The notes: a model not told the origin generated them from the sequence alone. 64,000 nucleotides of DNA from Thermoprotei archaeon (GCA_003649205.1 QMRC01000002.1:20770-84769), one strand, 5' to 3'. Shown: positions 16,037-45,245, numbered from the stretch's first letter. Program-made: numbers and translations.

Positions 16037-16522
16037 CTACCTCTTAAGAAATTTCTTGATCTCCTCGAAAACTTCAATAGCATACACTTCTTTCGATGGA
16101 GCGGCTGAAGGTGGCTTGAAGATCACAGGTATACCGAGAGTTTTAGCTCCTTCAGCTAACTTCCTATCACCAGTCACGAGAATAGCACCAAGTTCACGAG
16201 CATACTTCAAAACATCTAAGTCATCTTTAACAGGAAGATACGTGACACCATCAGCACAGTACCTATCACTAATCCCAGAGCAAACCTCAAAAACCTCAAG
16301 CTTGAGACCATGGTCACGAGCAATCCTAACAAGCAACCCCCCTAACTTCCTCAAAGTCTCATCACACAAAACCCTAGCACACAAACCCCCAGAACTAGTA
16401 CAGGAACAAGAGCTAACTAATCTCAACCTCCTAACAAAATCCTCAAGTTCACTCAAAGACTCAAAACACAGCAATAGATAAACCTTCAAAGCAAACCCCA
16501 GAAGAAACACAACAGACAACAC
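16037..16522 (-). CDS. PIN-like (Mut7-C/DUF82-type) RNase domain protein
   Basis: RVLCDETLRKLGGLLVRIARDHGL ... AILVTGDRKLAEGAKTLGIPVI matches the Mut7-C/PIN pattern (xD.mLgkLar.LR..G ... ilLT.D..l). The true start may be the TTG near 16384. Confidence 0.5.
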   Translation of the reverse strand: MLSVVFLLGFALKVYLLLCFESLSELEDFVRRLRLVSSCSCTSSGGLCARVLCDETLRKLGGLLVRIARDHGLKLEVFEVCSGISDRYCADGVTYLPVKDDLDVLKYARELGAILVTGDRKLAEGAKTLGIPVIFKPPSAAPSKEVYAIEVFEEIKKFLKR

Positions 16523-16595
16523 ATATCAAACAAACGGACAGTATAACGACAAATCACAGAAAGAGCGAAACAACACAAGTAATAGGAGAAGTAAA

Positions 16596-16705
16596 CCCCC
16601 GAGGAGTGAGGTAGGGTCCTAGATCTCCGTTCCCTCTATACCTAGGGTAACCCCCTAGGTATAGAGGTACTTGGAGACCTAGGGCTCTACCCCACTCCTC
16701 GGGGG
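16596..16705 (-). ncRNA. 110-nt GC-rich near-perfect hairpin, candidate structured RNA
   Basis: Arms CCCCCGAGGAGTGAGGTAGGGTCCTAGATCTCC..CTCTATACCTAGGG and CCCTAGGTATAGAG..GGAGACCTAGGGCTCTACCCCACTCCTCGGGGG with a 5-nt loop. Several arm differences become G:U pairs. A palindromic TATA-like CTTATAAG (16729-16736) sits ~25 nt from the 16705 end, which favours minus-strand transcription. Confidence 0.4.
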
Positions 16706-16964
16706 CGTTTGAAATTATGTCTGTGTATCTTATAAGATTTTTGGTGTTATGTTTTGAGGTATTATACTTGTGGAAATTACGCTACTTTACTTAGTTCACT
16801 TGATCAGTGCTTTGGCCCTTCTTCATCTTTCTGTGGCTACCATCTTCATCATCATATGTCTTCTTGTTTGTCTGCATTATATGGGTATCTGTATTCATGT
16901 ACTTTCGCTAGGGTGCATGCTTAAAAGTTAGGTGATTGTGTAAATAATTAGAAAGGGGGTTAAG

Positions 16965-36528: not shown

Positions 36529-36999
36529 ATGTCTAGTATAGCGGACTTAGTTAGTAACTACGTACGGTACGTAGTGCTCGAAACGTACGCACACGCTACT
36601 GAGAGCTTAGATAAGGTTAAGCAAGCATTCATCAACGTACTTCCTGAAGAACTAAGGTCTAGAGTACCCATCGTCTACGAGGTACAGGAAGGACACTACG
36701 GTAATATAGTGATCATAGTAAGAACCTTCATAGATAGGAAGGACTACATAACGATGCTCATAGAGTACCTATCTAAGTCCATGAGCAGTACCGACAAGAA
36801 CCAGCTAGGTAGTAGCCTCCGGATAAGAGTTGATGCTGCTGGTAACCTATACCTGAGATTTGATAAGCAATTAGCCTATCGTGGTATTGTGAAGTTATGT
36901 GATGGTGATGACGTTATCAAGATCAAGATCTCGTTCAATCTTAGAGCTAAGAAGTATGGTATTGATAAGCTCTGTAAGGAGTTGGGACTAATTGAGTAG
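36529..36999 (+). CDS. DUF54/COG1325-type RNA-binding protein (exosome-superoperon associated)
   Basis: 156 aa. The N-terminal ETYAHATESLDKVKQAFINVLPEE matches the h-p-TE-d-x-KV..al.nl.p pattern of this family. It sits directly upstream of Rpp30, as in other archaea. Confidence 0.55.
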   Translation: MSSIADLVSNYVRYVVLETYAHATESLDKVKQAFINVLPEELRSRVPIVYEVQEGHYGNIVIIVRTFIDRKDYITMLIEYLSKSMSSTDKNQLGSSLRIRVDAAGNLYLRFDKQLAYRGIVKLCDGDDVIKIKISFNLRAKKYGIDKLCKELGLIE

Positions 37000-37756
37000 G
37001 AGAAAATTCGTTGATATTGGTCTTAATCTACGTAACTTCTCTGTTGACATACTTGAGAAACTACTGAGCTTCCTCAAAGGCCTAGGGTACAGTGGCTTCT
37101 CTACTAGGTTGATCGTTCAGTGTGGTGAGGATTTGGGGAAGGTACTTGAGATTAGAGATGTACTGAGGAGCGTCAGTGAACGTGTTGGTCTTGAGTACAT
37201 TTCGAGAGTAGATATTGTTTCGAATAGGAAGGGCTTCATTAAGCTGTGTTTGAGGAGTATTAGGAGATCATTTGAATTGGTTGCTATCGGTACCTCATCT
37301 CTTGAAGTTGCTAGATTCGCAGCTAGGGATAGGAGAGTAGATATCGTCTACTTCACTAGTGGTAGTAGGAGGCTTCTCGATGATGTTGAGTGTAGAATGC
37401 TTAGTGAAGGTGGTAAGCTACTTGAATTATCTCTCTCAAAGCTCTTGCTAGACATTAGTAAGTACTTCGCAACATATAGGTACGTCGTTGAGATGTGTAG
37501 TGAGTACGGTGTCAACATCGTATTTACTAGTGGAGCATCTTCAGTTCACGAGTTGAGAGCACCTAGGGAATTAGCTAGTGTATTAGTAGCTCTCGGTCTA
37601 CCTGTGGAAAGAGCACTAGACGCTGTCTCAGATATTGTGTGGAAAGTTGTTGAGGTTAATAGGAAGAAGTTGAGAGGTATTATCGTTGCTGAAGGGGTTG
37701 AGGTAGTTGGTAAGGAGAAGGAGGAGAAGGTACGTAGTTCTGAAGGTACTGAGTAG
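36992..37756 (+). CDS. rnp3: RNase P protein component 3 (Rpp30)
   Basis: FAARDRRVDIVYF, LELSLSKLL and IVFTSGASSVHELRAPRELASVLVALGL match conserved Rpp30 (PHP-like barrel) blocks. Confidence 0.8.
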   Translation: MSRRKFVDIGLNLRNFSVDILEKLLSFLKGLGYSGFSTRLIVQCGEDLGKVLEIRDVLRSVSERVGLEYISRVDIVSNRKGFIKLCLRSIRRSFELVAIGTSSLEVARFAARDRRVDIVYFTSGSRRLLDDVECRMLSEGGKLLELSLSKLLLDISKYFATYRYVVEMCSEYGVNIVFTSGASSVHELRAPRELASVLVALGLPVERALDAVSDIVWKVVEVNRKKLRGIIVAEGVEVVGKEKEEKVRSSEGTE

Positions 37757-38084
37757 TGAAGACATTCCACTTCAATTACTTGTTAATCACTTAGAGAGAT
37801 TCCGTGAAAAGCTCTTTGGACTACTGTACTGTAGATGGGTAAACTTCAGAATAGTTTACGTAAATGAGAACGCTCGAACCCTAGTCATTCAAACCGATCA
37901 CAGGTCTCTTCCCTTAGTTAGATTACTCACATGCTTAGTGACTGAGGTTGAGAACTGCAAAGTACTGCTCTACTGTCTTAAGGTTACAGGTACTCTGCGT
38001 AAGGCGAAGGCACAGGCAGATAGTATGGGTATTCAGGTGAAGTACATGGAGAATCTCTTTAGGGAACTACTACAAGCTATGTAG
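37707..38084 (+). CDS. rnp2: RNase P protein component 2 (Pop5)
   Basis: RRRRYVVLKV...LFGLL...LVIQTDHRSLPLVRLL...LKVTGTLRKAK fits the Pop5 pattern. It overlaps the end of Rpp30 by 50 nt. Confidence 0.75.
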   Translation: MVRRRRRRYVVLKVLSSEDIPLQLLVNHLERFREKLFGLLYCRWVNFRIVYVNENARTLVIQTDHRSLPLVRLLTCLVTEVENCKVLLYCLKVTGTLRKAKAQADSMGIQVKYMENLFRELLQAM

Positions 38085-38155
38085 TACCTCTATCGTCCGT
38101 ATCTTGTGTGTCAGTTATTTAACTCATTTGGTGCTCACATGAGATTGGTGTTGTA

Positions 38156-38974
38156 ATGAGCTTGAGGACTGAGCTTCTTACTAGGTCACTACCTAGAGTA
38201 ACGTATGAGAAATTAGTGAGCTACCTCACGTTACTGTATAGGGTAGGTGGTAGAGCTAGGGTAATGGACTTAGTAGAGAGCGGTGTTGAGACCAAGGGTA
38301 GGGATGTAACGTTATTCTGTAAGAGAGTTGAACTTATTGTTGGAGACGGGACAGGTTACGTCACATTAAGTCAATTCGGTAGGAAATTCATTGAGTTACT
38401 ACAGGTAGATCAGAGAAAGGCGAAGTACTACCTCCATAGGTACCTCTACGATAAGCTACCACACTATAGGCTATTTATTGATGTCGTTACAGAGCTAGGT
38501 GAAGCAACACGTGAAGAAATCCACAGAGTACTCAACGATAAGGTTAAGGAGCTACTACCAGGCTCATGGATTAACAGGAACGCTATGACAGTGCTCATGG
38601 ACCTAGCTAGGAAACTCGACGTTATTGAAGTTCAAGGAGGAAAGGTAAGACCTAGAGTACACGCACTAATTAACAAGCTCATTAACTCAATGAGCGAGAA
38701 CGTAGTTGAGCACGAAGGCTACATCCTGGTGAGAACTGAAGACCTCTTAGCTAAGCTACAGGAGAACTTCAATCTCAGTGAAGAAAACCTAGCAAAAGTA
38801 CTTCAGAAAACTATTGAGCGTAGTAGGGCTGATGGGCTAGTGACGACAATACTAGCACCAACATCACATCCACTCATCTCACCAGAGATCTCAATTCTAA
38901 AGATACCACGTGATAAGCTACCTCAATTCATGGACCTACTGATACAGGAGGTGATCACACTTGAGAAATCCTAA
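38156..38974 (+). CDS. Operon gene 1: 272-aa predicted winged-helix/helical protein, function unknown
   Basis: First gene after the TATA-like TTATTTAA (38115-38122). wHTH-like segments (LVSYLTLLYRVGGRARVMDLVE, and REEIHRVLNDKV...). Its end overlaps gene 2 by 14 nt. Confidence 0.6.
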   Translation: MSLRTELLTRSLPRVTYEKLVSYLTLLYRVGGRARVMDLVESGVETKGRDVTLFCKRVELIVGDGTGYVTLSQFGRKFIELLQVDQRKAKYYLHRYLYDKLPHYRLFIDVVTELGEATREEIHRVLNDKVKELLPGSWINRNAMTVLMDLARKLDVIEVQGGKVRPRVHALINKLINSMSENVVEHEGYILVRTEDLLAKLQENFNLSEENLAKVLQKTIERSRADGLVTTILAPTSHPLISPEISILKIPRDKLPQFMDLLIQEVITLEKS

Positions 38975-41900
38975 CCTAGTAGATGCCTACACGATATTCG
39001 GCTTCCTCGATAGGCCATTTCACCCTGTTGGTTTGGTCCCCATTAGACGATTTCACAGAGCTGTTGGCTTAGGACCTGAACTCAGTAAGGTATTGAGTAC
39101 CTTAGAGAGGTTTATAATCAGTAGAGAGAACCTACTCTTCCTCGTAGTTGCTGAGTACGGTTGGGGTAAGAGTGAGCTACTTGACGAGATCGAGCACATA
39201 ATCCACGAGATGTTTAGCGACAAGGTTGTGGTAGTTAGAGAGGTTCTCACACCCGAGCTAAAGCTACCTCTAGACAAGATCTGTAAGCTACGTGAGGAGA
39301 CGAATAAGCACATCGTAGTGTTAGTAGATGAAGTTGATGAACTATCCAGATTAGCATCTGCTGTTCTACGCGAAGAGGAGATACCAGACTCAATTAGGAA
39401 GGCTTTTGTAGACTTCGGAACTAGTCTCAGAGCATTACTCGAACCGCGCGTATTCTCATCAGTACTCAGAGGTAAGGTCATAGACAAGGTACTACTCATT
39501 CTAGCCGTAACACCACAGCTAGCTACACTACTCTCTAGGTGTGTACCAGATGTATTCACAGCTGTTAGAGGTAGGATATGTGGTGAAGTTAGGCTAGAGA
39601 AGTTCCTCTACTGGCAGCTAGAGGGCTTAGTCGTAACGAGGTTGATCTCGTACTCATCACCAGAAAGAAGGCAGTTAATCGAGAAGGGTAAGCTACATCC
39701 ATACCACCCCTTCATTAGAGATGCACTACCAACGCTGTACACACTAGCTAAGAGCATCGAAGTTAGAGAAACACCCTCACCGAGGCTCCTAGTTAAGCTA
39801 CTCTCAGCACTAATGGATGAGGCAATACTCCACTCAATACGAGAAGGTACTAAGGAATTGAGAACAATAGGTGTTGAAGACATAGTCGAAGTAATCTCTA
39901 AGTGCACTGAAGCAGGTGAGAAGATAGTAGACAGAGAGTACTTGGAGGAGCTACTGAATGCAGTACAGAAACGTGAGGAGAAACTAGTACTCAAAATACT
40001 AGCACTCTCCGAAATACCACGAACACTAGACTCAATAGAGTACGAGCTAAGAACTAGGTATGGAATCACCACAAATACCGAGCAAATAATCAACACATTA
40101 ATTGCTAGAAACTTAGTGAGAAAACTGGCAGCAGTAAAAGTACCACTAAATCGGGAAGTACTAACAAAACTGAATAGACTAAGGCTAAAGTTTGGCCTAC
40201 CACCAGTACCAACAACCATAGACAAACTCTCCATAGAGTATCCCAACTACGTAGCTAGATACGAAGGTACAGTCGAGAGAGAAACGAAGATCCTGATTGA
40301 GATCTACTTCCCACCACTTCCTGAAATACTCAGAGAACTACAGGAACAAAAGCTAGAGATCAACTACGTGTACACAGTTCCAGAGGAGATAAATGCCATA
40401 GTCTTCAGGAAGAAACTACCTAAACATCTAGAGGAGATCCGTAGGAAAATACATGAAGCAAGCGAAGAATTCACAGCACTACTAAAAGCACCAACAATAG
40501 ACTCAGAACTCTACACAAGACTACACACAATAGTTGTCAGCAAGATCGTGAACATAGCACCAAAAGGTACTCTGAGGTACGTAAAGACTAGCGACCTAGG
40601 GACAGTATCCGTAGACGATGTAAGAGAAGGACTTAGAGTATGCTACGTAACAGTACTAATCAACGAGTACACACAAAAGTTCATAGACCTAGACAAACTA
40701 CTTGAAGTACTGAGGAAGATCATTAGACAAGGCTTCATCAGCGGTTACGAAGGTAGGAAATACGTCAAATTACCTTTCGACGCTCTAGTACTAGTAGTAG
40801 TTAGCACCACAAGGACAACACAGGAAATACAGGAAGAAATCACTAAATTCCTTCAATCAACTAGGTGGAAGATCTTCGACCTAACATCAGATAACTTCGT
40901 ACACATAGAGATCTACGGTAGAGACAAGCTAGATGAACTAAGGTACGCATACATAGGTGCTCACCTAGGTCTAGGAGATGTACCGGAGGAGTACAGGGTA
41001 TTTACACAGGTAGCTCAAGAACTTAGATCGAGAGTAGCTGGCTCACTTCAGGAAGTACTTAGACGCTACATAGACCTAGGTCTCGTAGTAGGACTACGTC
41101 TAAAACCCGGTAGGAGTAAGGACATAGCACTTAGAGACATAGTTAGGAAGTGGATACTCAACGAGAAAATCACCGATCAACCACCAGTATTCTGTAGTGA
41201 AGATGGTACACCTAGAATATCACCAGTCGAGCTCACCCTCTACAGATACCTACAGTCTGCCCTTGGTGAAATGCCAATAAGCTGTGAAGTACTTACCGAG
41301 CTGATTAGATCAGCGTACCCAGTTAGATTGTGGAGGAACTTCAAGGAAGACGACCTAGTGAAAGCTATGAAGTTAAGAGGATTACTCATACCACAATCAA
41401 TTGAGGAAAGAGCATACTACGTAATTGGCCCAAGTACAGTAAAGTACGCCATCAAGTACCTAAGGGCGAGAGTTAATGCAGCTAGAAACAAACTCAGACT
41501 AGAAACCACAGTCGTGATCACACATAGATTACTAAGTAGAGAAATAGTGGTTAAAGTACCTGAAACAAGTACGAAGGTAAGAGAGCTAGAGATGAAGCTA
41601 AATGACATAGAGAACGAACTCAACATCTTAGAGGAAGTAGCAAACGCACTCAAGTCACCAGAGAGCATTTTAGAGGTATTCATAGTCAGATATGCAAAGC
41701 TAAACATGGAAATAGATGAGATATGCGAGAAACTAGATGAAGTAGCTAAAGCACTAAGTGACGAGATCAGCAATGTCAAGATGGATGTCCTCAACTTCCT
41801 AACAACACTAGAAGCAAATCTATCAGATGTATGGTCAGCAATAAACAAACTACCTGACACACTGAAGAACGAAGTCAACAAAGTAGTTACAGACTTTGTG

Positions 41901-42698
41901 AATGACATACTGAAGAGATTAACATCGTGCAAGATCTGGGACCTCGAATACCTAAAAGCAGTACTAACAACAATGAGAAAAGACATAGAGAACCTAAGGA
42001 ACTACGTACAAGACTTCACCACGGCAGTGATGAATCTCCTCGACTACACTAGAAACTACAGTGAAGCAATAGACGTACTAATCAAGATAACAGACAATAC
42101 AGCACTCAAACAGGAGAGACTAAGCACAGATGAGGTACTCACCGACATAGCTGAGGTAGTGAAGATACACGAGGTAAGCACCTGGAACAAGGTAATAGAG
42201 AAGATTAGAGAGTGGTGCACAGAACTACAGCAGAAAATAGCTGAAGTAGATAGAGAGGTTAGAGCTAGACTACTAAAGACAGAAGAAGAGTACCGAGTAC
42301 TCACGAGAAAACTCGAGTGGATCAACCAACGAATACTCAAGACAAAGGTAAGTACAGAACTCAATACTCAACTACTGGAGAAAGTCAAGAAGATATGCAG
42401 GGAACTGAGCACAGAACCCAAATTACTACACCTCTACACCTTCGATAGACCACTACTGTTCACAGAGCTAGAGAAGTTCAGAGAAGCCAGGGAAGTAGTG
42501 ACGTCACTACTCCATGAACTAGCAAATACCTTGAAGACAAAAGTGGAGATCCTAGACTACATAGCGTCACTAGGATACAATAGAGGTATTGACGTACAGG
42601 AGTTGGTAAAGATCTCGAACTTAAGTGAAGGTGAGGTAGTTAAGGTACTTGAGAACCTAGCTAAACTAGGTATTGTCGAGAAGAAGTACGTGACCTAG
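38961..42698 (+). CDS. Operon gene 2: 1245-aa P-loop NTPase with winged-helix modules and a long helical/coiled-coil region
   Basis: Walker A is AEYGWGKS (aa 64-71), Walker B is IVVLVDEVDE (aa 118-127) and LILAVTP is sensor-1-like. wHTH-like segments occur mid-protein and at the extreme C-terminus (LSEGEVVKVLENLAKLGIVEKKY). About 350-400 aa is K/E/L/N-rich helical sequence. Confidence 0.7.
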   Translation: MRNPNLVDAYTIFGFLDRPFHPVGLVPIRRFHRAVGLGPELSKVLSTLERFIISRENLLFLVVAEYGWGKSELLDEIEHIIHEMFSDKVVVVREVLTPELKLPLDKICKLREETNKHIVVLVDEVDELSRLASAVLREEEIPDSIRKAFVDFGTSLRALLEPRVFSSVLRGKVIDKVLLILAVTPQLATLLSRCVPDVFTAVRGRICGEVRLEKFLYWQLEGLVVTRLISYSSPERRQLIEKGKLHPYHPFIRDALPTLYTLAKSIEVRETPSPRLLVKLLSALMDEAILHSIREGTKELRTIGVEDIVEVISKCTEAGEKIVDREYLEELLNAVQKREEKLVLKILALSEIPRTLDSIEYELRTRYGITTNTEQIINTLIARNLVRKLAAVKVPLNREVLTKLNRLRLKFGLPPVPTTIDKLSIEYPNYVARYEGTVERETKILIEIYFPPLPEILRELQEQKLEINYVYTVPEEINAIVFRKKLPKHLEEIRRKIHEASEEFTALLKAPTIDSELYTRLHTIVVSKIVNIAPKGTLRYVKTSDLGTVSVDDVREGLRVCYVTVLINEYTQKFIDLDKLLEVLRKIIRQGFISGYEGRKYVKLPFDALVLVVVSTTRTTQEIQEEITKFLQSTRWKIFDLTSDNFVHIEIYGRDKLDELRYAYIGAHLGLGDVPEEYRVFTQVAQELRSRVAGSLQEVLRRYIDLGLVVGLRLKPGRSKDIALRDIVRKWILNEKITDQPPVFCSEDGTPRISPVELTLYRYLQSALGEMPISCEVLTELIRSAYPVRLWRNFKEDDLVKAMKLRGLLIPQSIEERAYYVIGPSTVKYAIKYLRARVNAARNKLRLETTVVITHRLLSREIVVKVPETSTKVRELEMKLNDIENELNILEEVANALKSPESILEVFIVRYAKLNMEIDEICEKLDEVAKALSDEISNVKMDVLNFLTTLEANLSDVWSAINKLPDTLKNEVNKVVTDFVNDILKRLTSCKIWDLEYLKAVLTTMRKDIENLRNYVQDFTTAVMNLLDYTRNYSEAIDVLIKITDNTALKQERLSTDEVLTDIAEVVKIHEVSTWNKVIEKIREWCTELQQKIAEVDREVRARLLKTEEEYRVLTRKLEWINQRILKTKVSTELNTQLLEKVKKICRELSTEPKLLHLYTFDRPLLFTELEKFREAREVVTSLLHELANTLKTKVEILDYIASLGYNRGIDVQELVKISNLSEGEVVKVLENLAKLGIVEKKYVT

Positions 42699-42700
42699 GA

Positions 42701-43474
42701 GTGATGACCATGTACATACTCCTAGCACCTAAATCCACAGCAACTACTAGAGCACGAGTACTCGCAGAAAAACTACAGAAGAAACTAGGAGTAAATGTAA
42801 AGATTAGCGAGAAACCAGTAGAGAACACAAAGCTCAATATAGTGCTACAAACATTTTGGAACTCAGAACTACTTGACCTAGTTAAGAAAGTGAGGTGTAG
42901 GTACCTCATAGTTGCTGATAGTGAAGATCTACTGAAGGAATTTGGTATCCACAACTACGCCAGCAAACCAGCTATAGTAATGGTTAGAGGCTCTAGGAAC
43001 TACACACTTAAAGCACACATCGGGACAAAAGCATTCAAGAACGGTATAGACCTGGTAGCGTCACCAGATGGTACACCGTATTCAATTCAGATAGGTACAG
43101 GATACCTAATAGCGATCAAGCCCTTTAAAGTAGATGAGAAGTTAGTAACTGAGAACTTCGTCGAAGATATTAAGCAGATAGTACAGGCACTAACTCACAA
43201 TCATGAGAAGCAGAGAGACATCACTAAGATAGTTGCAGTACTGAAAGAGAAGATAAGAGAAGAGAGGAGGAGAGAGTACTTCTCAAAAACTGCGAGAGCG
43301 CTTGAGTACATAGCTAGTGGGGACGTAACCAACATAGATGCTACAACACTAGAGCTACTAGTTGACCTTGGTCTCGTCAAAGTACTTGAGACAGAATCTC
43401 AGTACAAGTTCATACCTAACACAGATCTCGCAAGACAGGTAATTAGAACACTAGAACGTGAAGGTTACCTATGA
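42701..43474 (+). CDS. Operon gene 3: 257-aa unknown protein with C-terminal winged-helix-like segment
   Basis: It starts 2 nt after the gene 2 stop. The N-terminal alpha/beta-like domain has no catalytic motif. The C-terminal LELLVDLGLVKVLETESQYKFIPNTDLARQVIRTLEREGYL is wHTH-like. Confidence 0.6.
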   Translation: MMTMYILLAPKSTATTRARVLAEKLQKKLGVNVKISEKPVENTKLNIVLQTFWNSELLDLVKKVRCRYLIVADSEDLLKEFGIHNYASKPAIVMVRGSRNYTLKAHIGTKAFKNGIDLVASPDGTPYSIQIGTGYLIAIKPFKVDEKLVTENFVEDIKQIVQALTHNHEKQRDITKIVAVLKEKIREERRREYFSKTARALEYIASGDVTNIDATTLELLVDLGLVKVLETESQYKFIPNTDLARQVIRTLEREGYL

Positions 43475-44565
43475 CAACACCACTAGAGAACATCATAAGG
43501 GAAGTATACAGAGCAGCTGAGAGAGTATTCCCAAAGGTAAGATCAAAGCTCCTCGAACTAAGTCGTGAAGTGAATAAGCTAAGTACTGAATTCGCTAATC
43601 CAATTGAGAGAAGCAAATTGAGATACATCGTAGTAACGGTTGATAGTGGCTTCATAAAGCTAAAGTACGCAAACTTCGCTATAGCTATAGTCGTAGCACA
43701 TGCAATATCATCAGTAGGTAAGGGACAGGTAGTTAACGTAGCAGCTGAACCAGTCATGATAAAGACCTTGAAGAGAAGTGAGTACGCACTCCACTACGTA
43801 TCCAAAATCATCGAGTACAGATGCCTACACAACGTACTTGAGAAGGTACTCAGAGAGAAGACCAGCGAAGATGTAGTGGTCCTACTCGATGGAGCACTAA
43901 CGTACCCCGAAGAGAGAACCGATGATATCGAACTCACAAAACTCTACCAAGAGTACCGTAGAGAGTACGAGAAGGTACTTGCAATACTAGAGAGTTACAG
44001 AGATAGAACCTACGTAGTAGCTATAGCAAAGGACCTACCAGTAGACAAGTACCTAGATGCTCTCGAAGAACTAACTGAGTACAGAGGAGTAGAGAAATTC
44101 CGTAGTCTACATACATGGCTCTGTAGAGCTACAGAACTACTCCACGAGAGAACTGCAGTAGACATACTACTCAGAGCTAGAGGAGTACCATCGTACCTAC
44201 ACCCAGTTAGAGTAGATAACTTGAGAAAGTACAGAGCACCTACAGTACCACAGATATCTAGGTACGGCGTCTACGGCACATACGTGAAGCTAACACACTT
44301 GAGAAGACCACTCTACGTAGAGTTCATTGGGTGGAATCTACCCAAGGTAAGCACACTGATGACGGTACTGTACGAAACATCTATCTACAGCCCTAGGCCA
44401 GGTTACCCGGCACCACTCTTCATAGTTGACAGATTGACTAAGGTCGATAAAGCCATAGCGAGAGCCATAGCAACAGCAATAGAGTACGCAGCAAAACACG
44501 CACTAGGTGAGCTATATGTACAGGTCTTTACACCCACATTAAGGGAAGAGTACGAGCACTACTGA
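43471..44565 (+). CDS. Operon gene 4: NurA-like nuclease
   Basis: ATGA start/stop overlap with gene 3. NurA-type blocks are IVVTVDSGF, VVVLLDGALTYP, YVVAIAKD and the C-terminal RPGYPAPLFIVDRLTKVDKAIARA (compare GYP.pL..AD/H..a.i). Confidence 0.65.
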   Translation: MTTPLENIIREVYRAAERVFPKVRSKLLELSREVNKLSTEFANPIERSKLRYIVVTVDSGFIKLKYANFAIAIVVAHAISSVGKGQVVNVAAEPVMIKTLKRSEYALHYVSKIIEYRCLHNVLEKVLREKTSEDVVVLLDGALTYPEERTDDIELTKLYQEYRREYEKVLAILESYRDRTYVVAIAKDLPVDKYLDALEELTEYRGVEKFRSLHTWLCRATELLHERTAVDILLRARGVPSYLHPVRVDNLRKYRAPTVPQISRYGVYGTYVKLTHLRRPLYVEFIGWNLPKVSTLMTVLYETSIYSPRPGYPAPLFIVDRLTKVDKAIARAIATAIEYAAKHALGELYVQVFTPTLREEYEHY

Positions 44566-45245
44566 TGCGAAGTACGTACCGACTTGAGTTCTCTGATCAA
44601 AGCTCTACACTTCTCAACAGCATCAATAGCATCCCTACCCCAAGCATCAGCACCAATACTCTTAGCAAACTCCTCAGTTGTAGGTAAACCACCAATAATC
44701 ACCTTAACCCTATCCCTAAGACCTCTCTCACGAAGTAACTCGACAACCCTCCTCATCTCATCCAGCACCGTAGTTAGGAGCGCTGACATAGCAACAATAC
44801 CAGCACCATACCTCTCAACAGCCTCCACAAACTTTTCAGGCGGTACGTCAACACCAAGATCAATAACCCTGAAACCAGCTGCTCTCAACATCGTAGCTAC
44901 TAAGTTCTTACCAATGTCATGAATATCACCACGAACAGTACCAATAACAACCGTACCAACCTCACCACTAGCCTCAATACACTCAACCAACTTAGGCTCC
45001 AAAACCCTAAGACACTCCCTAAAGATCTCAGAAGCTAAAAGCAACTCAGCTAAGTAGTACTCACCACGCTCAAACCTCTCACCAATAATCCTCATACCAT
45101 CACTAAGAGCACGAAACACAATATCCCTAGCCGATACACCATGCTTTATAGCTTCCTCAACAAGCCTAAGTACCTCATCCAACTTAAGCTCCACAAATGA
45201 ATCACGAATCCTAGCTAAAACATCACCACTACACTGCATACACAC
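44559..45245 (-). CDS. Cobalamin-binding corrinoid protein (MtbC/MetH B12-domain type)
   Basis: A helical B12-binding cap is followed by the DxHxxG motif GTVRGDIHDIGKNLV, then MSALLTT and IIGG. The start is GTG 45245 or ATG 45239. Confidence 0.85.
   Translation of the reverse strand: MCMQCSGDVLARIRDSFVELKLDEVLRLVEEAIKHGVSARDIVFRALSDGMRIIGERFERGEYYLAELLLASEIFRECLRVLEPKLVECIEASGEVGTVVIGTVRGDIHDIGKNLVATMLRAAGFRVIDLGVDVPPEKFVEAVERYGAGIVAMSALLTTVLDEMRRVVELLRERGLRDRVKVIIGGLPTTEEFAKSIGADAWGRDAIDAVEKCRALIRELKSVRTSHQ

What the first reader, a model, noticed from the sequence alone, without database searches (positions are those of the whole stretch)
38115..44565. Four-gene coupled operon (wHTH protein, 1245-aa P-loop NTPase, unknown protein, NurA-like nuclease): candidate undescribed DNA-surveillance or defence module
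Seen in the sequence: four same-strand ORFs (38156-38974, 38961-42698, 42701-43474, 43471-44565) are joined by a 14-nt overlap, a 2-nt gap and an ATGA overlap. There is a single TATA-like box (TTATTTAA, 38115-38122) upstream and no internal intergenic space, so this is one transcription and translation unit. Gene 2 carries Walker A and Walker B motifs within its first 130 aa, followed by more than 1000 aa of winged-helix-like and long helical sequence. Gene 4 carries NurA-type blocks. Genes 1 and 3 have no catalytic motif but do have wHTH-like segments. Established knowledge: NurA normally works with the ~500-aa HerA hexameric translocase, next to mre11/rad50. None of those genes is here. Inference: a nuclease plus a giant NTPase plus DNA-binding accessory proteins is the architecture of many defence and DNA-surveillance systems, but I cannot match this gene set to any named system.
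Basis: partly seen in the sequence, partly recalled or inferred. Interest (0 to 1): 0.85.

Follow-up and report, generated by a model that had tools for sequence, protein, structure and literature searches.

The report
BrxC-like ATPase plus NurA nuclease operon
This is a real, very rare and so far unnamed archaeal operon that pairs a giant ORC/Cdc6-type DNA-binding ATPase with a NurA nuclease; it is inherited vertically across the Thermoproteales and probably forms an ATP-driven complex that finds and degrades particular DNA.

Summary
Four same-strand ORFs sit at the stated coordinates, with the stated overlaps and the TATA-like box.

- **Gene 4** is a true NurA: Pfam 60.7 bits against a cutoff of 21, a profile hit to Sulfolobus NurA, and invariant D58/E115/D140.
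- **Gene 2** is not HerA. Its modelled N-terminus (pLDDT 87) matches Orc1/Cdc6 AAA+ proteins. The domain order (AAA+, wH, α+β, wH, long coiled coil, terminal wH) matches the published description of BrxC. Sequence-level BrxC membership fails.
- **Genes 1 and 3** have no family.
- **Known systems:** no PADLOC model matches any of the four proteins.
- **Rarity:** the gene 2 family has 42 hits among 1.84 billion representative proteins.
- **Distribution:** all 33 genome loci are Thermoproteales, and the gene 2 tree follows genus taxonomy.
- **Synteny:** gene2–gene3–NurA is syntenic in almost all loci. Gene 1 is kept only in the window's lineage and in a distant low-GC metagenomic branch. There the same four genes are followed by HerA, a TGT-like gene and, in two of the three full-length loci, a PCNA-like gene.

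Best reading (about 0.5): a NurA-armed relative of the recently described "ORC/Cdc6 + HerA capture / BREX-related" systems. The main rival is a lineage-specific housekeeping repair complex. I rate it a new variant of a known kind, interest about 0.62.

The parts
38115..38122 (+). TATA-like box TTATTTAA, 34 nt upstream of the gene 1 ATG
   Evidence: Read in the sequence. Function not tested. The intergenic gap to the upstream RNase P subunit gene is 71 nt.
38156..38974 (+). Gene 1, 272 aa, no family; predicted accessory DNA-binding or adaptor subunit
   Evidence: - ORF.
- No Pfam, NCBIfam or PADLOC hit.
- Homologous to the gene immediately upstream of the NTPase in distant-branch locus L046 (BLASTP 4e-11, 25% identity over about 250 aa); my g1 HMM also marks the upstream ORFs of L047-L049, but L047 and L048 were among the sequences it was built from, so only L049 is an independent hit.
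- Absent next to the NTPase in all other Thermoproteales loci.
- The L047 homologue has a weak WHD_MCM8 hit.
38961..42698 (+). Gene 2, 1245 aa, ORC/Cdc6-clade AAA+ ATPase with BrxC-like multidomain architecture
   Evidence: - ORF with a TTG start preceded by GGAGGTGA.
- Family of only 42 representatives in 1.84 billion proteins.
- AF2 model of residues 1-830 has pLDDT 87.
- Foldseek top hits are all Orc1/Cdc6/ORC subunits, E 6e-8 to 1e-5.
39150..39173 (+). Walker A (AEYGWGKS, residues 64-71) of gene 2
   Evidence: Y66, G67, G69 and K70 are invariant in 23 sequences, including the distant branch.
39315..39341 (+). Walker B (VVLVDEVDE, residues 119-127) of gene 2
   Evidence: D123, E124 and D126 are invariant. 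Candidate sensor 1 (T184), arginine finger (R205) and sensor 2 (R275) are invariant or nearly so; their roles are inferred from position in the model.
39873..40190 (+). First winged-helix region of gene 2 (about residues 305-410), after the AAA+ lid
   Evidence: Secondary-structure elements of the AF2 model. The alignment to Orc1/Cdc6 chains extends over 400-500 columns. TrmB-type wHTH hits fall at the equivalent place in relatives P0020 and P0047.
40248..40916 (+). α+β region of gene 2 (about residues 430-652), unassigned fold
   Evidence: AF2 elements E430-472, two long helices 488-526, then H577-590 / E592-597 / E600-605 / E608-615 / H620-633 / E647-652. Invariant Y430, R559, D607 and W636, with K637 nearly invariant. 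It corresponds in position to the roughly 200-aa α+β domain described for BrxC (PMC12839542). No conserved (D/E)xK motif.
41118..41429 (+). Second winged-helix-like region of gene 2 (about residues 720-823), with the conserved P..LWR...D......LRG motif
   Evidence: AF2 elements H720-806, E809-811, E818-821. P787, L790, W791 and D798 are invariant in 26 sequences; R792 and G807 are conserved in at least 90%.
41430..42515 (+). Long helical / coiled-coil arm of gene 2 (about residues 824-1185)
   Evidence: Only weak coiled-coil-type matches: SMC, ASRP, ZorA tail. Length is variable among relatives. Not modelled.
42528..42695 (+). C-terminal wHTH of gene 2 (about residues 1190-1245)
   Evidence: - Weak TrmB/MarR_2 hits in the window protein.
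- TrmB hits in 14 of 23 relatives; HTH_Cmi2_C at 28.8 bits in P0006.
- The family profile hits the CdvB wH domain 2xvc at E 0.0034.
42701..43474 (+). Gene 3, 257 aa (more likely 254 aa from ATG 42710), conserved small partner with a C-terminal winged helix
   Evidence: - Always lies between the NTPase and NurA.
- The family is alignable, with a conserved ERR..K.S.TL helix and an LP..ILD motif.
- The AF2 model is confident only for residues 170-254 (helix-helix-helix-strand-strand-helix, pLDDT about 88); the rest is below 50.
- No fold match and no family.
- The first 85 aa or so are a lineage-specific extension.
43471..44565 (+). Gene 4, 364 aa, NurA-family nuclease with intact catalytic residues
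   Evidence: - Pfam NurA 2e-16, 60.7 bits against a cutoff of 21, covering 54-325.
- The family profile hits S. solfataricus NurA 2ygk (1.7e-8) and P. furiosus NurA 3tai (1.6e-4).
- D58 (nt 43642-43644), E115 (43813-43815), D140-G141 (43888-43893), K187, Y282 and Y312-P313 are invariant in 21 sequences.

Best explanation
**What it is (shown).** A translationally coupled operon that is conserved and vertically inherited across the order Thermoproteales. It encodes:
- a 950-1250-aa ORC/Cdc6-clade AAA+ ATPase. Its domain order is AAA+ with lid, winged helix, α+β domain, winged helix, long coiled coil and terminal winged helix, which is the order published for the BREX scaffold ATPase BrxC;
- a small partner protein with a C-terminal winged helix (gene 3);
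- a NurA nuclease with intact active-site residues (gene 4);
- in the window's lineage, a fourth subunit (gene 1). This is ancestral, because a distant low-GC branch has the same four genes in the same order, followed directly by a genuine HerA translocase, a divergent TGT-like enzyme and, in two of the three full-length loci (L047 and L048), a PCNA-like protein.

**How it most likely works (inferred).**
1. Gene 2 oligomerises on DNA through its AAA+ ring. Walker A/B and a candidate arginine finger are invariant.
2. Its several wH domains and coiled-coil arms hold and scan duplex DNA.
3. Genes 1 and 3 act as adaptors or target-recognition subunits.
4. ATP-dependent engagement licenses or feeds DNA to a NurA dimer, which degrades it 5'→3'.
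5. In the ancestral form HerA threads the DNA into NurA. In the Thermoproteales, HerA is either supplied in trans (Pyrobaculum has an orphan herA paralogue group; PMC3396285) or its motor role is taken over by gene 2.

The most probable target is foreign or aberrant DNA. On that reading this is a NurA-armed relative of the 'ORC/Cdc6 + HerA/FtsK capture' and BREX-related systems, fixed in the chromosome of one archaeal order.
For: - **Gene identities:** NurA. The gene 2 fold matches Orc1/Cdc6.
- **Weak BrxC link by sequence:** AAA_16 in 22 of 23 relatives, nSTAND5 in 16 of 23, BrxC_BrxD PF10923 in 11 of 23. One member is above cutoff (33.3 bits against 22.2), though over only 75 profile positions.
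- **Domain order:** it matches the BrxC description in PMC12839542 section 16.
- **Synteny:** NTPase–gene3–NurA occurs in about 30 independent loci.
- **Ancestral four-gene order plus HerA and TGT-like:** seen in full in L046-L048, with a PCNA-like gene in L047 and L048; L049, which ends just inside the NTPase, shows only a gene-1 homologue directly upstream of it.
- **Literature theme:** ORC/Cdc6 ATPase + HerA/FtsK + nuclease + multi-wHTH protein is a recurrent anti-invader theme. One BREX-related version also recruits TGT and GNAT (PMC10853773, PMC12839542).
- **GNAT neighbour:** a GNAT gene is the conserved divergent neighbour of gene 2 in Pyrobaculum and Thermoproteus.
- **Translational coupling:** tight coupling and SD motifs.
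Against: - No experimental data exist for any member.
- The window's own gene 2 does not hit any BrxC, DUF499 or DUF6079 profile at E ≤ 1. hhalign against E. coli BrxC aligns only the P-loop, probability 2%.
- No PglZ, methyltransferase or other modification gene is present, so no self/non-self mark is evident.
- The neighbourhood is housekeeping: RNase P subunits, corrinoid protein, trehalose synthase, transporters; no CRISPR array.
- The gene tree follows taxonomy. Divergence is only modestly faster than a neighbour gene: 64%, 57% and 57% against 71% for GNAT between two Pyrobaculum species.
- No copies on viral contigs.
- All of this fits a core cellular function as well as it fits a fixed defence system.
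- Gene 3 and gene 1 have no assigned fold.
- Physical interaction among the proteins is untested.
Confidence: 0.5

Rival explanations
1. A lineage-specific housekeeping machine for DNA repair or chromosome maintenance. The AAA+/coiled-coil protein recognises DNA ends, stalled forks or another chromosomal structure, in a role analogous to Rad50–Mre11. It recruits NurA (with a HerA encoded elsewhere) for end resection, in parallel with the canonical HerA–NurA pair.
For: - Vertical inheritance across genera with stable flanking synteny.
- Housekeeping neighbours, not a defence island.
- No PADLOC hit and no viral copies.
- The distant-branch HerA scores best against DSB-repair HerA models: 205-251 bits, against 126-149 bits for antiphage HerA. 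The PCNA-like neighbour (in L047 and L048) suggests replication or repair.
- Only moderate sequence divergence.
Against: - Thermoproteales already have a canonical NurA–HerA pair plus two further pairs (PMC3396285), so there is no obvious gap to fill.
- The module has been lost or truncated in some lineages (L019, L021, L045), so it is dispensable.
- The BrxC-like architecture is known so far only from conflict systems (PMC12839542).
- The TGT-like partner in the distant branch recalls Dpd-type DNA modification.
Confidence: 0.3
2. A restriction-modification-like system based on 7-deazaguanine DNA modification. The TGT-like enzyme marks self DNA and the NTPase/NurA/HerA module restricts unmarked DNA. 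The Thermoproteales form in the window would be a remnant that has lost the modification arm and changed function.
For: - The TGT-like gene immediately follows HerA in all three full distant-branch loci, with QueT/QueC nearby in L047.
- A weak DpdA match in L046.
- Published precedent of TGT recruited into BrxC-like/HerA systems.
Against: - No TGT-like gene in the window operon or in the flanks held for any Thermoproteales locus.
- The TGT-like proteins score best against archaeosine tRNA TGT, and far below every cutoff.
- Adjacency could be lineage synteny among only three related contigs.
Confidence: 0.12
3. Simply a divergent copy of the canonical HerA–NurA resection pair, with gene 2 being a highly diverged HerA.
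For: NurA is genuine, and an ATPase lies upstream in the same operon.
Against: - Gene 2 has no DUF87, HAS-barrel or HerA_C signal.
- Its fold matches AAA+ Orc1/Cdc6, not the RecA-like HerA/FtsK fold.
- In the distant branch a true HerA coexists with the gene 2 homologue.
Confidence: 0.02

Closest known systems
BrxC / DUF6079 / DUF499 ATPases of BREX and BREX-related systems (PMC12839542)
   Same: - Size about 1200 aa.
- N-terminal ORC/Cdc6-clade AAA+ with an arginine at the base of strand 5.
- Then wHTH, an α+β domain of about 200 aa, wHTH, a 250-500-aa coiled coil and a small terminal subdomain.
- 11 of 23 family members give weak PF10923 (BrxC_BrxD) hits around the P-loop.
   Different: - No profile hit for the window protein itself.
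- hhalign to E. coli BrxC aligns only Walker A.
- No PglZ, PglX, BrxA, BrxB or BrxL partners; g1 against BrxA and g3 against BrxB are negative.
- The effector is NurA.
- Distribution is one archaeal order with vertical inheritance, not patchy and mobile.
HerA/FtsK 'capture systems' with Orc/Cdc6 ATPases (PMC10853773) and the BREX-related capture (BRC) system (PMC12839542)
   Same: The combination of an ORC/Cdc6-type ATPase, a nuclease, small wHTH proteins and, in the distant branch, HerA plus TGT. A GNAT gene is a conserved neighbour in Pyrobaculum and Thermoproteus.
   Different: - HerA, which is universal in those systems, is absent from the window and from the flanks held for every Thermoproteales locus, a few kb on either side.
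- The nuclease there is a REase or PglZ, never NurA: 'NurA' occurs zero times in both papers.
- No STAND or PglZ component.
Canonical archaeal HerA–NurA (with Mre11–Rad50) DNA end-resection machinery
   Same: A NurA-family nuclease with the catalytic Asp/Glu/Asp set, encoded next to a ring-forming ATPase. The distant branch has an adjacent HerA with DUF87 and HerA_C matches and, in L047, a weak sub-threshold HAS-barrel match.
   Different: - No HerA, Mre11 or Rad50 in the operon or window.
- The partner ATPase is AAA+, not HerA/FtsK.
- Pyrobaculum already has the canonical pair elsewhere, and this NurA is an additional paralogue not listed in that paper's table of NurA/HerA paralogues (PMC3396285).
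HerA-effector antiphage pairs (SIR2–HerA, DUF4297–HerA) and the CRISPR-associated nurA–csm6–herA cluster of Thermoproteales
   Same: The logic of a hexameric ATPase coupled to a degradative effector. NurA paralogues have been recruited outside DSB repair within the same order.
   Different: Different ATPase class, no CRISPR array or cas genes nearby, and different NurA paralogue groups.

Membership tests
NurA (PF09376) | Profile match above the curated threshold over the whole domain | tested here: met
   60.7 bits against cutoff 21, residues 54-325 on profile 3-254 of 254. The family profile hits PDB NurA 2ygk at 1.7e-8.
NurA (PF09376) | Conserved catalytic acidic residues of the RNase H-like active site (Asp in the first strand, Glu, Asp of the DG motif, C-terminal Asp/His) | tested here: met
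   D58, E115 and D140-G141 are invariant in 21 sequences. The C-terminal GYP.PL..(D/H) motif is conserved. The motifs align with those of S. solfataricus NurA.
NurA (PF09376) | 5'→3' exo/endonuclease activity, stimulated by a partner ATPase | not testable with these tools
   Needs biochemistry.
Canonical HerA–NurA–Mre11–Rad50 operon | Adjacent herA (DUF87/HAS-barrel) gene | tested here: not met
   No HerA by tblastn or HMM in the window or in any Thermoproteales locus. Present only in the distant branch.
Canonical HerA–NurA–Mre11–Rad50 operon | Adjacent mre11 and rad50 | tested here: not met
   Pfam annotations of all genes within ±10 kb show neither. The ten other large window ORFs scanned are unrelated; not every window ORF was scanned.
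ORC/Cdc6-clade AAA+ ATPases | AAA+ core plus helical lid plus winged helix, structurally superposable on Orc1/Cdc6 | tested here: met
   AF2 pLDDT 87. The first 29 Foldseek PDB hits, and most of the top 50, are Orc1/Cdc6/ORC subunits, probability 1.0, E down to 6e-8.
ORC/Cdc6-clade AAA+ ATPases | Walker A, Walker B, sensor 1, arginine finger, sensor 2 | tested here: inconclusive
   Walker A and B are invariant. T184, R205 and R275 are invariant or nearly so at the expected positions in the model, but their roles are inferred, not verified in 3D.
BrxC (BREX) / DUF6079 / DUF499 | Sequence-profile membership | tested here: not met
   No such Pfam or PADLOC hit for the window protein at E ≤ 1. hhalign of the family against E. 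coli HS BrxC aligns 28 columns, probability 2%. Relatives give only partial PF10923 hits (profile positions 18-92 of 414), one above cutoff.
BrxC (BREX) / DUF6079 / DUF499 | Domain order: AAA+, wHTH, α+β, wHTH, coiled coil, distal subdomain | tested here: inconclusive
   The order of elements in the AF2 model and the C-terminal wHTH and coil signals fit the published description. No BrxC structure was available for a direct domain-level comparison.
BREX system | Co-occurrence with PglZ and a methyltransferase or other modification enzyme, BrxA/BrxB | tested here: not met
   None within ±10 kb. g1 against BrxA and g3 against BrxB give no similarity.
HerA/FtsK capture systems / BRC | HerA/FtsK translocase universally present in the locus | tested here: not met
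   Absent in the window and in the Thermoproteales loci. Met only in L046-L048.
HerA/FtsK capture systems / BRC | ORC/Cdc6 ATPase plus nuclease effector plus small multi-wHTH protein | tested here: inconclusive
   ATPase and nuclease are present. The nuclease class differs (NurA, not REase or PglZ). A wHTH is shown only for the g3 C-terminus. The g1 fold is unknown.
STAND NTPases | Profile match to a STAND NTPase family above threshold | tested here: not met
   nSTAND_NTPase5 scores 19.7 bits against cutoff 34 and AAA_16 scores 13.6 against 32.6. Structural hits favour ORC/Cdc6; one NLR appears only at rank 43.
Any PADLOC-DB v2 defence system | Significant match of any of the four proteins to a defence-system model | tested here: not met
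   Genes 1, 3 and 4 have no hits. Gene 2 has only a ZorA coiled-coil-tail match of 19.7 bits. Distant-branch NTPases and NurAs are also negative.

The most novel reading that the evidence does not exclude
The window carries the most complete Thermoproteales version of an undescribed NurA-based DNA-targeting system. Its ancestral form has seven genes: g1, a BrxC-like AAA+, g3, NurA, HerA, a DNA-directed TGT-like enzyme and a PCNA-like clamp. On this reading a BREX-type scaffold ATPase, rather than Mre11–Rad50, directs the HerA–NurA resection engine. The Thermoproteales have fixed a HerA-less derivative as a core chromosomal function. It would be the first link between the BREX scaffold and the archaeal/eukaryote-like end-resection machinery.
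Probability: 0.3. Interest if true: 0.8.

Novelty: new variant of a known kind. Interest (0 to 1): 0.62.

Why it matters
- **New role for NurA.** NurA is known as the nuclease of the archaeal HerA–NurA end-resection machine. Apart from a CRISPR-associated nurA–csm6–herA cluster noted in the Thermoproteales themselves (PMC3396285), I found no report of it as an effector of a conflict or surveillance system. BrxC-type ATPases are central to BREX but are not mechanistically understood.
- **A small natural test system.** An operon that couples the two has three or four proteins, no modification enzyme, thermostable components, and is present in cultivated Pyrobaculum, Thermoproteus and Vulcanisaeta. 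It could show how a BrxC-like scaffold recognises DNA and hands it to a nuclease.
- **Evolution.** If the module is housekeeping, it is an example of a conflict-system architecture domesticated by a whole archaeal order. If it is defensive, it is a vertically fixed defence system with an unusual effector.
- **Further lead.** The seven-gene distant form hints at DNA-level 7-deazaguanine chemistry in archaea.

Tried and rejected
- **Sequence searches of the large ATPase (g2) and the NurA nuclease (g4) against PDB.** The g2 search gave only an E 0.2 match of the terminal winged helix to 2xvc (ESCRT-III/CdvB), and the g4 search a chance match to KRas. Profile versions were needed.
- **PADLOC and NCBIfam on all four proteins.** No usable hits.
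- **Structure job with locus-derived sequences.** Repeated with proteins from the searches.
- **Gene 3 structure.** Low confidence except for the C-terminal wH. Foldseek gave nothing below E 0.1, so gene 3 stays unassigned.
- **Gene 3 profile search of the 5.8-billion database.** Only 3 proteins returned because of the word prefilter. Worked around with exact look-ups.
- **Gene 1 profile against PDB.** Nothing.
- **hhalign of g2, g1 and g3 families against E. coli HS BrxC, BrxA and BrxB.** Negative.
- **Viral-contig scans with both family alignments.** Nothing.
- **Taxon names for the distant branch by exact look-up.** None carried a name.
- **Sigma-70 promoter and terminator scan.** Not informative for an archaeon.
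- **'Cmi2' literature search** (to interpret PF24270). Irrelevant hits.
- **Rejected ideas:**
  - Gene 2 as a divergent HerA (wrong fold).
  - Gene 2 as SMC/Rad50-like (both Walker motifs are N-terminal and the fold is AAA+).
  - CRISPR-associated NurA (no array or cas genes nearby).
  - A PD-(D/E)xK nuclease in the α+β region. The order of elements is reminiscent, but there is no conserved (D/E)xK, so this is left open.

Full report

I read the junctions in the sequence.
- The g1 stop (TAA, 38972-38974) overlaps the g2 start by 14 nt. The g2 TTG is preceded by a strong Shine-Dalgarno-like GGAGGTGA.
- The g2 stop (TAG, 42696-42698) is followed by GTG 42701. However, AGGAGTGA at 42697-42704 makes ATG 42710 the likelier start of g3. 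That gives 254 aa, the form held in the public collection.
- The g3/g4 junction is ATGA.
- TTATTTAA is at 38115-38122.
- g4 ends 7 nt inside a convergent corrinoid-protein gene.

Promoter use and co-transcription are not shown by anything I could run.

**What the proteins are: gene 4.** Gene 4 is a NurA. Pfam PF09376 scores 60.7 bits against a gathering score of 21, over the whole domain. A profile of 21 homologues from this kind of locus hits the crystal-structure sequences of S. solfataricus NurA (1.7e-8) and P. furiosus NurA (1.6e-4). D58, E115, D140-G141, K187, Y282 and Y312-P313 are invariant. The nuclease is therefore probably active.

**What the proteins are: gene 2.** Gene 2 has invariant Walker A (YGWGKS, 66-71) and Walker B (DEVDE, 123-127) motifs. 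It has no significant family hit. There are only sub-threshold nSTAND_NTPase5 and AAA_16 hits at the N-terminus, TrmB/MarR-type wHTH hits at the extreme C-terminus, and coiled-coil noise in between.

An AlphaFold2 model of residues 1-830, built on a 24-sequence alignment, is confident (mean pLDDT 87.3, pTM 0.76). Its best PDB matches are all Orc1/Cdc6 and ORC subunits, with E from 6e-8 to 1e-5 and probability 1.0. The model runs in this order:
- AAA+ core and helical lid, to about residue 300;
- a winged helix, about 305-410;
- an α+β region with two long helices, about 430-652;
- a helical linker;
- a second winged-helix-like module, about 720-823.

The unmodelled remainder is a long helical arm of about 360 aa and a terminal wHTH. 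This is the domain order recently described for the BREX scaffold ATPase BrxC (PMC12839542 section 16).

At sequence level the link is weak. Across 23 family members, AAA_16 is hit by 22, nSTAND5 by 16 and BrxC_BrxD (PF10923) by 11. One member exceeds the cutoff (33.3 bits against 22.2), but only over profile positions 18-92 of 414. The window protein itself gives no BrxC-type hit. hhalign of the family against the genuine E. coli HS BrxC, which I located, aligns only the P-loop. So gene 2 works like, and is built like, a BrxC-type ORC/Cdc6 AAA+. I do not file it as a BrxC family member.

**What the proteins are: genes 3 and 1.** Gene 3 has no family. Its model is confident only for residues 170-254, a helix-helix-helix-strand-strand-helix winged-helix-like domain, and it has no fold match.

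Gene 1 has no family either. A homologue gives a weak WHD_MCM8 hit.

**Rarity and distribution.** The gene 2 family is extremely narrow.
- It has 7 clusters among 5.8 billion sequences by the word-indexed search.
- It has 42 representatives with E ≤ 1e-3 among 1.84 billion by an exhaustive profile search.
- A scan of one genome per GTDB species returned 33 loci. Every one comes from the Thermoproteales or from MAGs labelled Thermoproteota/Thermoproteales: Pyrobaculum, Thermoproteus, Vulcanisaeta, Thermocladium and uncultured lineages.
- The window is 96% identical in gene 2 to an uncultured Thermoproteales MAG.
- No copy was found on viral contigs.

A neighbour-joining tree of gene 2 groups sequences by genus. 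It places the window's lineage as the deepest Thermoproteales branch. Flanking genes are conserved within genera. Inheritance therefore looks vertical.

**Synteny.** The order NTPase, small protein, NurA-like protein recurs in essentially every locus with enough flank. HMMs built from my alignments also recover the partners in loci that were not used to build them.

The exceptions are informative:
- two lineages keep only the NTPase (L019, L021);
- one lacks NurA (L045);
- one has gene3-NurA displaced about 4 kb away (L037).

Gene 1 has no counterpart next to the NTPase in any other Thermoproteales locus.

**The distant branch.** Two weak full-length hits of the exhaustive search (P0043, P0047), plus one locus from the metagenome scan (L048), come from low-GC (28-33%) metagenomic contigs with no taxon label. 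All three have this gene order:
1. a 247-251-aa gene;
2. a 1218-1227-aa NTPase;
3. a 240-310-aa gene;
4. NurA (370-398 aa);
5. a genuine HerA, with DUF87 and HerA_C matches and, in L047, a weak sub-threshold HAS-barrel match;
6. a short, divergent TGT-like gene.

In two of the three loci a PCNA/Hus1-like gene follows.

The first gene is homologous to the window's gene 1 (BLASTP 4e-11 over about 250 aa). The NurAs are clearly related (1e-24). The middle gene is positionally equivalent to gene 3, but that is all I can show: BLASTP finds no similarity (E 0.082), and the gene-3 HMM that scores it was built from an alignment that already contained these three sequences, so that score is not independent evidence of homology.

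So the four-gene order of the window is ancestral. Most Thermoproteales have lost gene 1. The older form is physically linked to HerA.

No HerA homologue is detectable in the 64-kb window or in the flanks held for the other Thermoproteales loci, a few kb on either side.

**Context.** Within ±10 kb of the operon there are RNase P subunits, a thiamine-biosynthesis gene, a corrinoid protein, a PLD-family protein and transporters. Elsewhere in the window there are trehalose synthase, radical-SAM enzymes, an rRNA methyltransferase and transporters, and no CRISPR array. This is not a defence island.

Between P. oguniense and P. islandicum, genes 2, 3 and 4 are 64%, 57% and 57% identical, against 71% for the neighbouring GNAT. 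That is somewhat faster evolution, but not arms-race-like.

**Comparison with what is known.** Pyrobaculum species already carry a canonical NurA-HerA pair, a second pair, a CRISPR-associated nurA-csm6-herA cluster and an unmatched herA paralogue group (PMC3396285). The NurA of this module (next to Pogu_0218/0219) is not in that paper's table. It is therefore an additional, unnoticed paralogue. The orphan HerA is a candidate trans partner, which is speculation.

Two comparative-genomics papers describe a recurrent theme: an ORC/Cdc6-type ATPase, a HerA/FtsK translocase, a nuclease and fast-evolving multi-wHTH proteins form 'capture systems'. One BREX-related version adds TGT and GNAT (PMC10853773, PMC12839542). 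The distant-branch locus fits this theme closely. A GNAT gene is also the conserved divergent neighbour of gene 2 in Pyrobaculum and Thermoproteus.

The word 'NurA' does not occur in either paper. The only paper in the library holding both 'NurA' and 'BrxC' is a genome comparison of an SXT/R391 conjugative element, which I did not read and which by its title does not concern such a module. PADLOC has no model for any component.

**Mechanism.**

*Shown:*
- gene identities and folds as described above;
- intact ATPase and nuclease motifs;
- tight genetic coupling;
- conserved synteny;
- the ancestral HerA link.

*Inferred:*
1. Gene 2 assembles on DNA as an AAA+ oligomer, using its several wH domains and coiled-coil arms.
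2. Genes 1 and 3 act as adaptors or recognition subunits.
3. ATP-dependent engagement delivers DNA to a NurA dimer for 5'→3' degradation.
4. HerA acts as the motor in the ancestral form. In the Thermoproteales it is either supplied in trans or functionally replaced.

I favour foreign or aberrant DNA as the target, a fixed defence or surveillance system, at about 0.5. The main rival is a lineage-specific housekeeping repair or maintenance complex (about 0.3). It is favoured by vertical inheritance, housekeeping context and the repair-type affinity of the distant-branch HerA. It is disfavoured by redundancy with the canonical pair, by sporadic loss, and by the conflict-system pedigree of the ATPase architecture. 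A Dpd-like modification-restriction reading applies at most to the seven-gene form (about 0.12). A 'divergent HerA-NurA pair' is refuted.

**Verdict.** The ATPase class is now identified, the taxonomic range and inheritance are defined, gene 1 is shown to be ancestral but usually lost, and a HerA/TGT-linked ancestral form has been uncovered.

It is best rated a new variant of a known kind: an ORC/Cdc6-BrxC-like ATPase system with NurA as the effector. It is not categorically new. Interest is 0.62. It would surprise and interest specialists in archaeal DNA repair and in BREX-type defence. It also offers cultivable, thermostable material for mechanism. But function remains entirely inferential.

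Noticed in passing
L046:12673-15445; L047:10985-15676; L048:13787-18090: In the distant low-GC branch the NurA gene is followed by HerA and a short, divergent TGT-like gene (338-364 aa). The archaeosine-TGT model scores 35-106 bits against cutoff 350, and there is a weak DpdA hit in L046. In L047 and L048 a 364-aa PCNA/Hus1-like protein follows, then QueT and QueC in L047. This may be a DNA-directed 7-deazaguanine module.
   Followed up: partly
L047:2-2394 (- strand); L048:1410-2435 (- strand): A second NurA-like gene lies a few kb upstream of the module on the opposite strand, so these organisms keep two NurA genes side by side. The two copies fall in the same 90% cluster. In L047 a 486-aa HerA-like gene sits next to it.
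   Followed up: partly
L004:7440-7931, L005:2877-3368, L006:7461-7973 (- strand): A GNAT acetyltransferase is the conserved, divergently transcribed upstream neighbour of the NTPase gene in Pyrobaculum and Thermoproteus lineages. GNAT is also an optional component of the published BREX-related capture system.
   Followed up: partly
L019, L021, L045, L037: Partial decay or rearrangement of the module. L019 and L021 keep the NTPase but lack gene 3 and NurA. L045 lacks NurA. L037 has gene3-NurA about 4 kb upstream on the other strand.
   Followed up: yes
L008, L024, L026, L027, L039 (Vulcanisaeta JCM draft genomes): The large NTPase gene is split into 2-6 consecutive ORFs in these drafts. These are either sequencing frameshifts or real pseudogenes. 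Vulcanisaeta MAGs have it intact.
   Followed up: no
window 40700-40916 (gene 2 residues about 577-652): The modelled element order here is helix, three strands, helix, strand, which is reminiscent of a PD-(D/E)xK core. D607 and W636 are invariant and K637 nearly so, but there is no conserved (D/E)xK. It could be an inactive REase-like domain or the BrxC-type α+β domain.
   Followed up: no
window 36529-38084: Three genes sit immediately upstream on the same strand: a PF01877 RNA-binding protein and the RNase P subunits Rpp30 and Rpp14. They are separated from gene 1 by only 71 nt, so read-through transcription into the operon cannot be excluded.
   Followed up: no
window 44559-45245 (- strand): A B12-binding corrinoid protein gene converges on the NurA gene and overlaps its 3' end by 7 nt, leaving no room for a terminator between them.
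   Followed up: no
L008:970-3742 and 16108-16870: In Vulcanisaeta souniana the module is flanked by a PD-(D/E)xK-like protein (PDDEXK_10), a minimal nucleotidyltransferase (NTP_transf_2) and an SMC_N/AAA_23-AAA_21 pair. This is the only context seen that looks at all defence-island-like.
   Followed up: no
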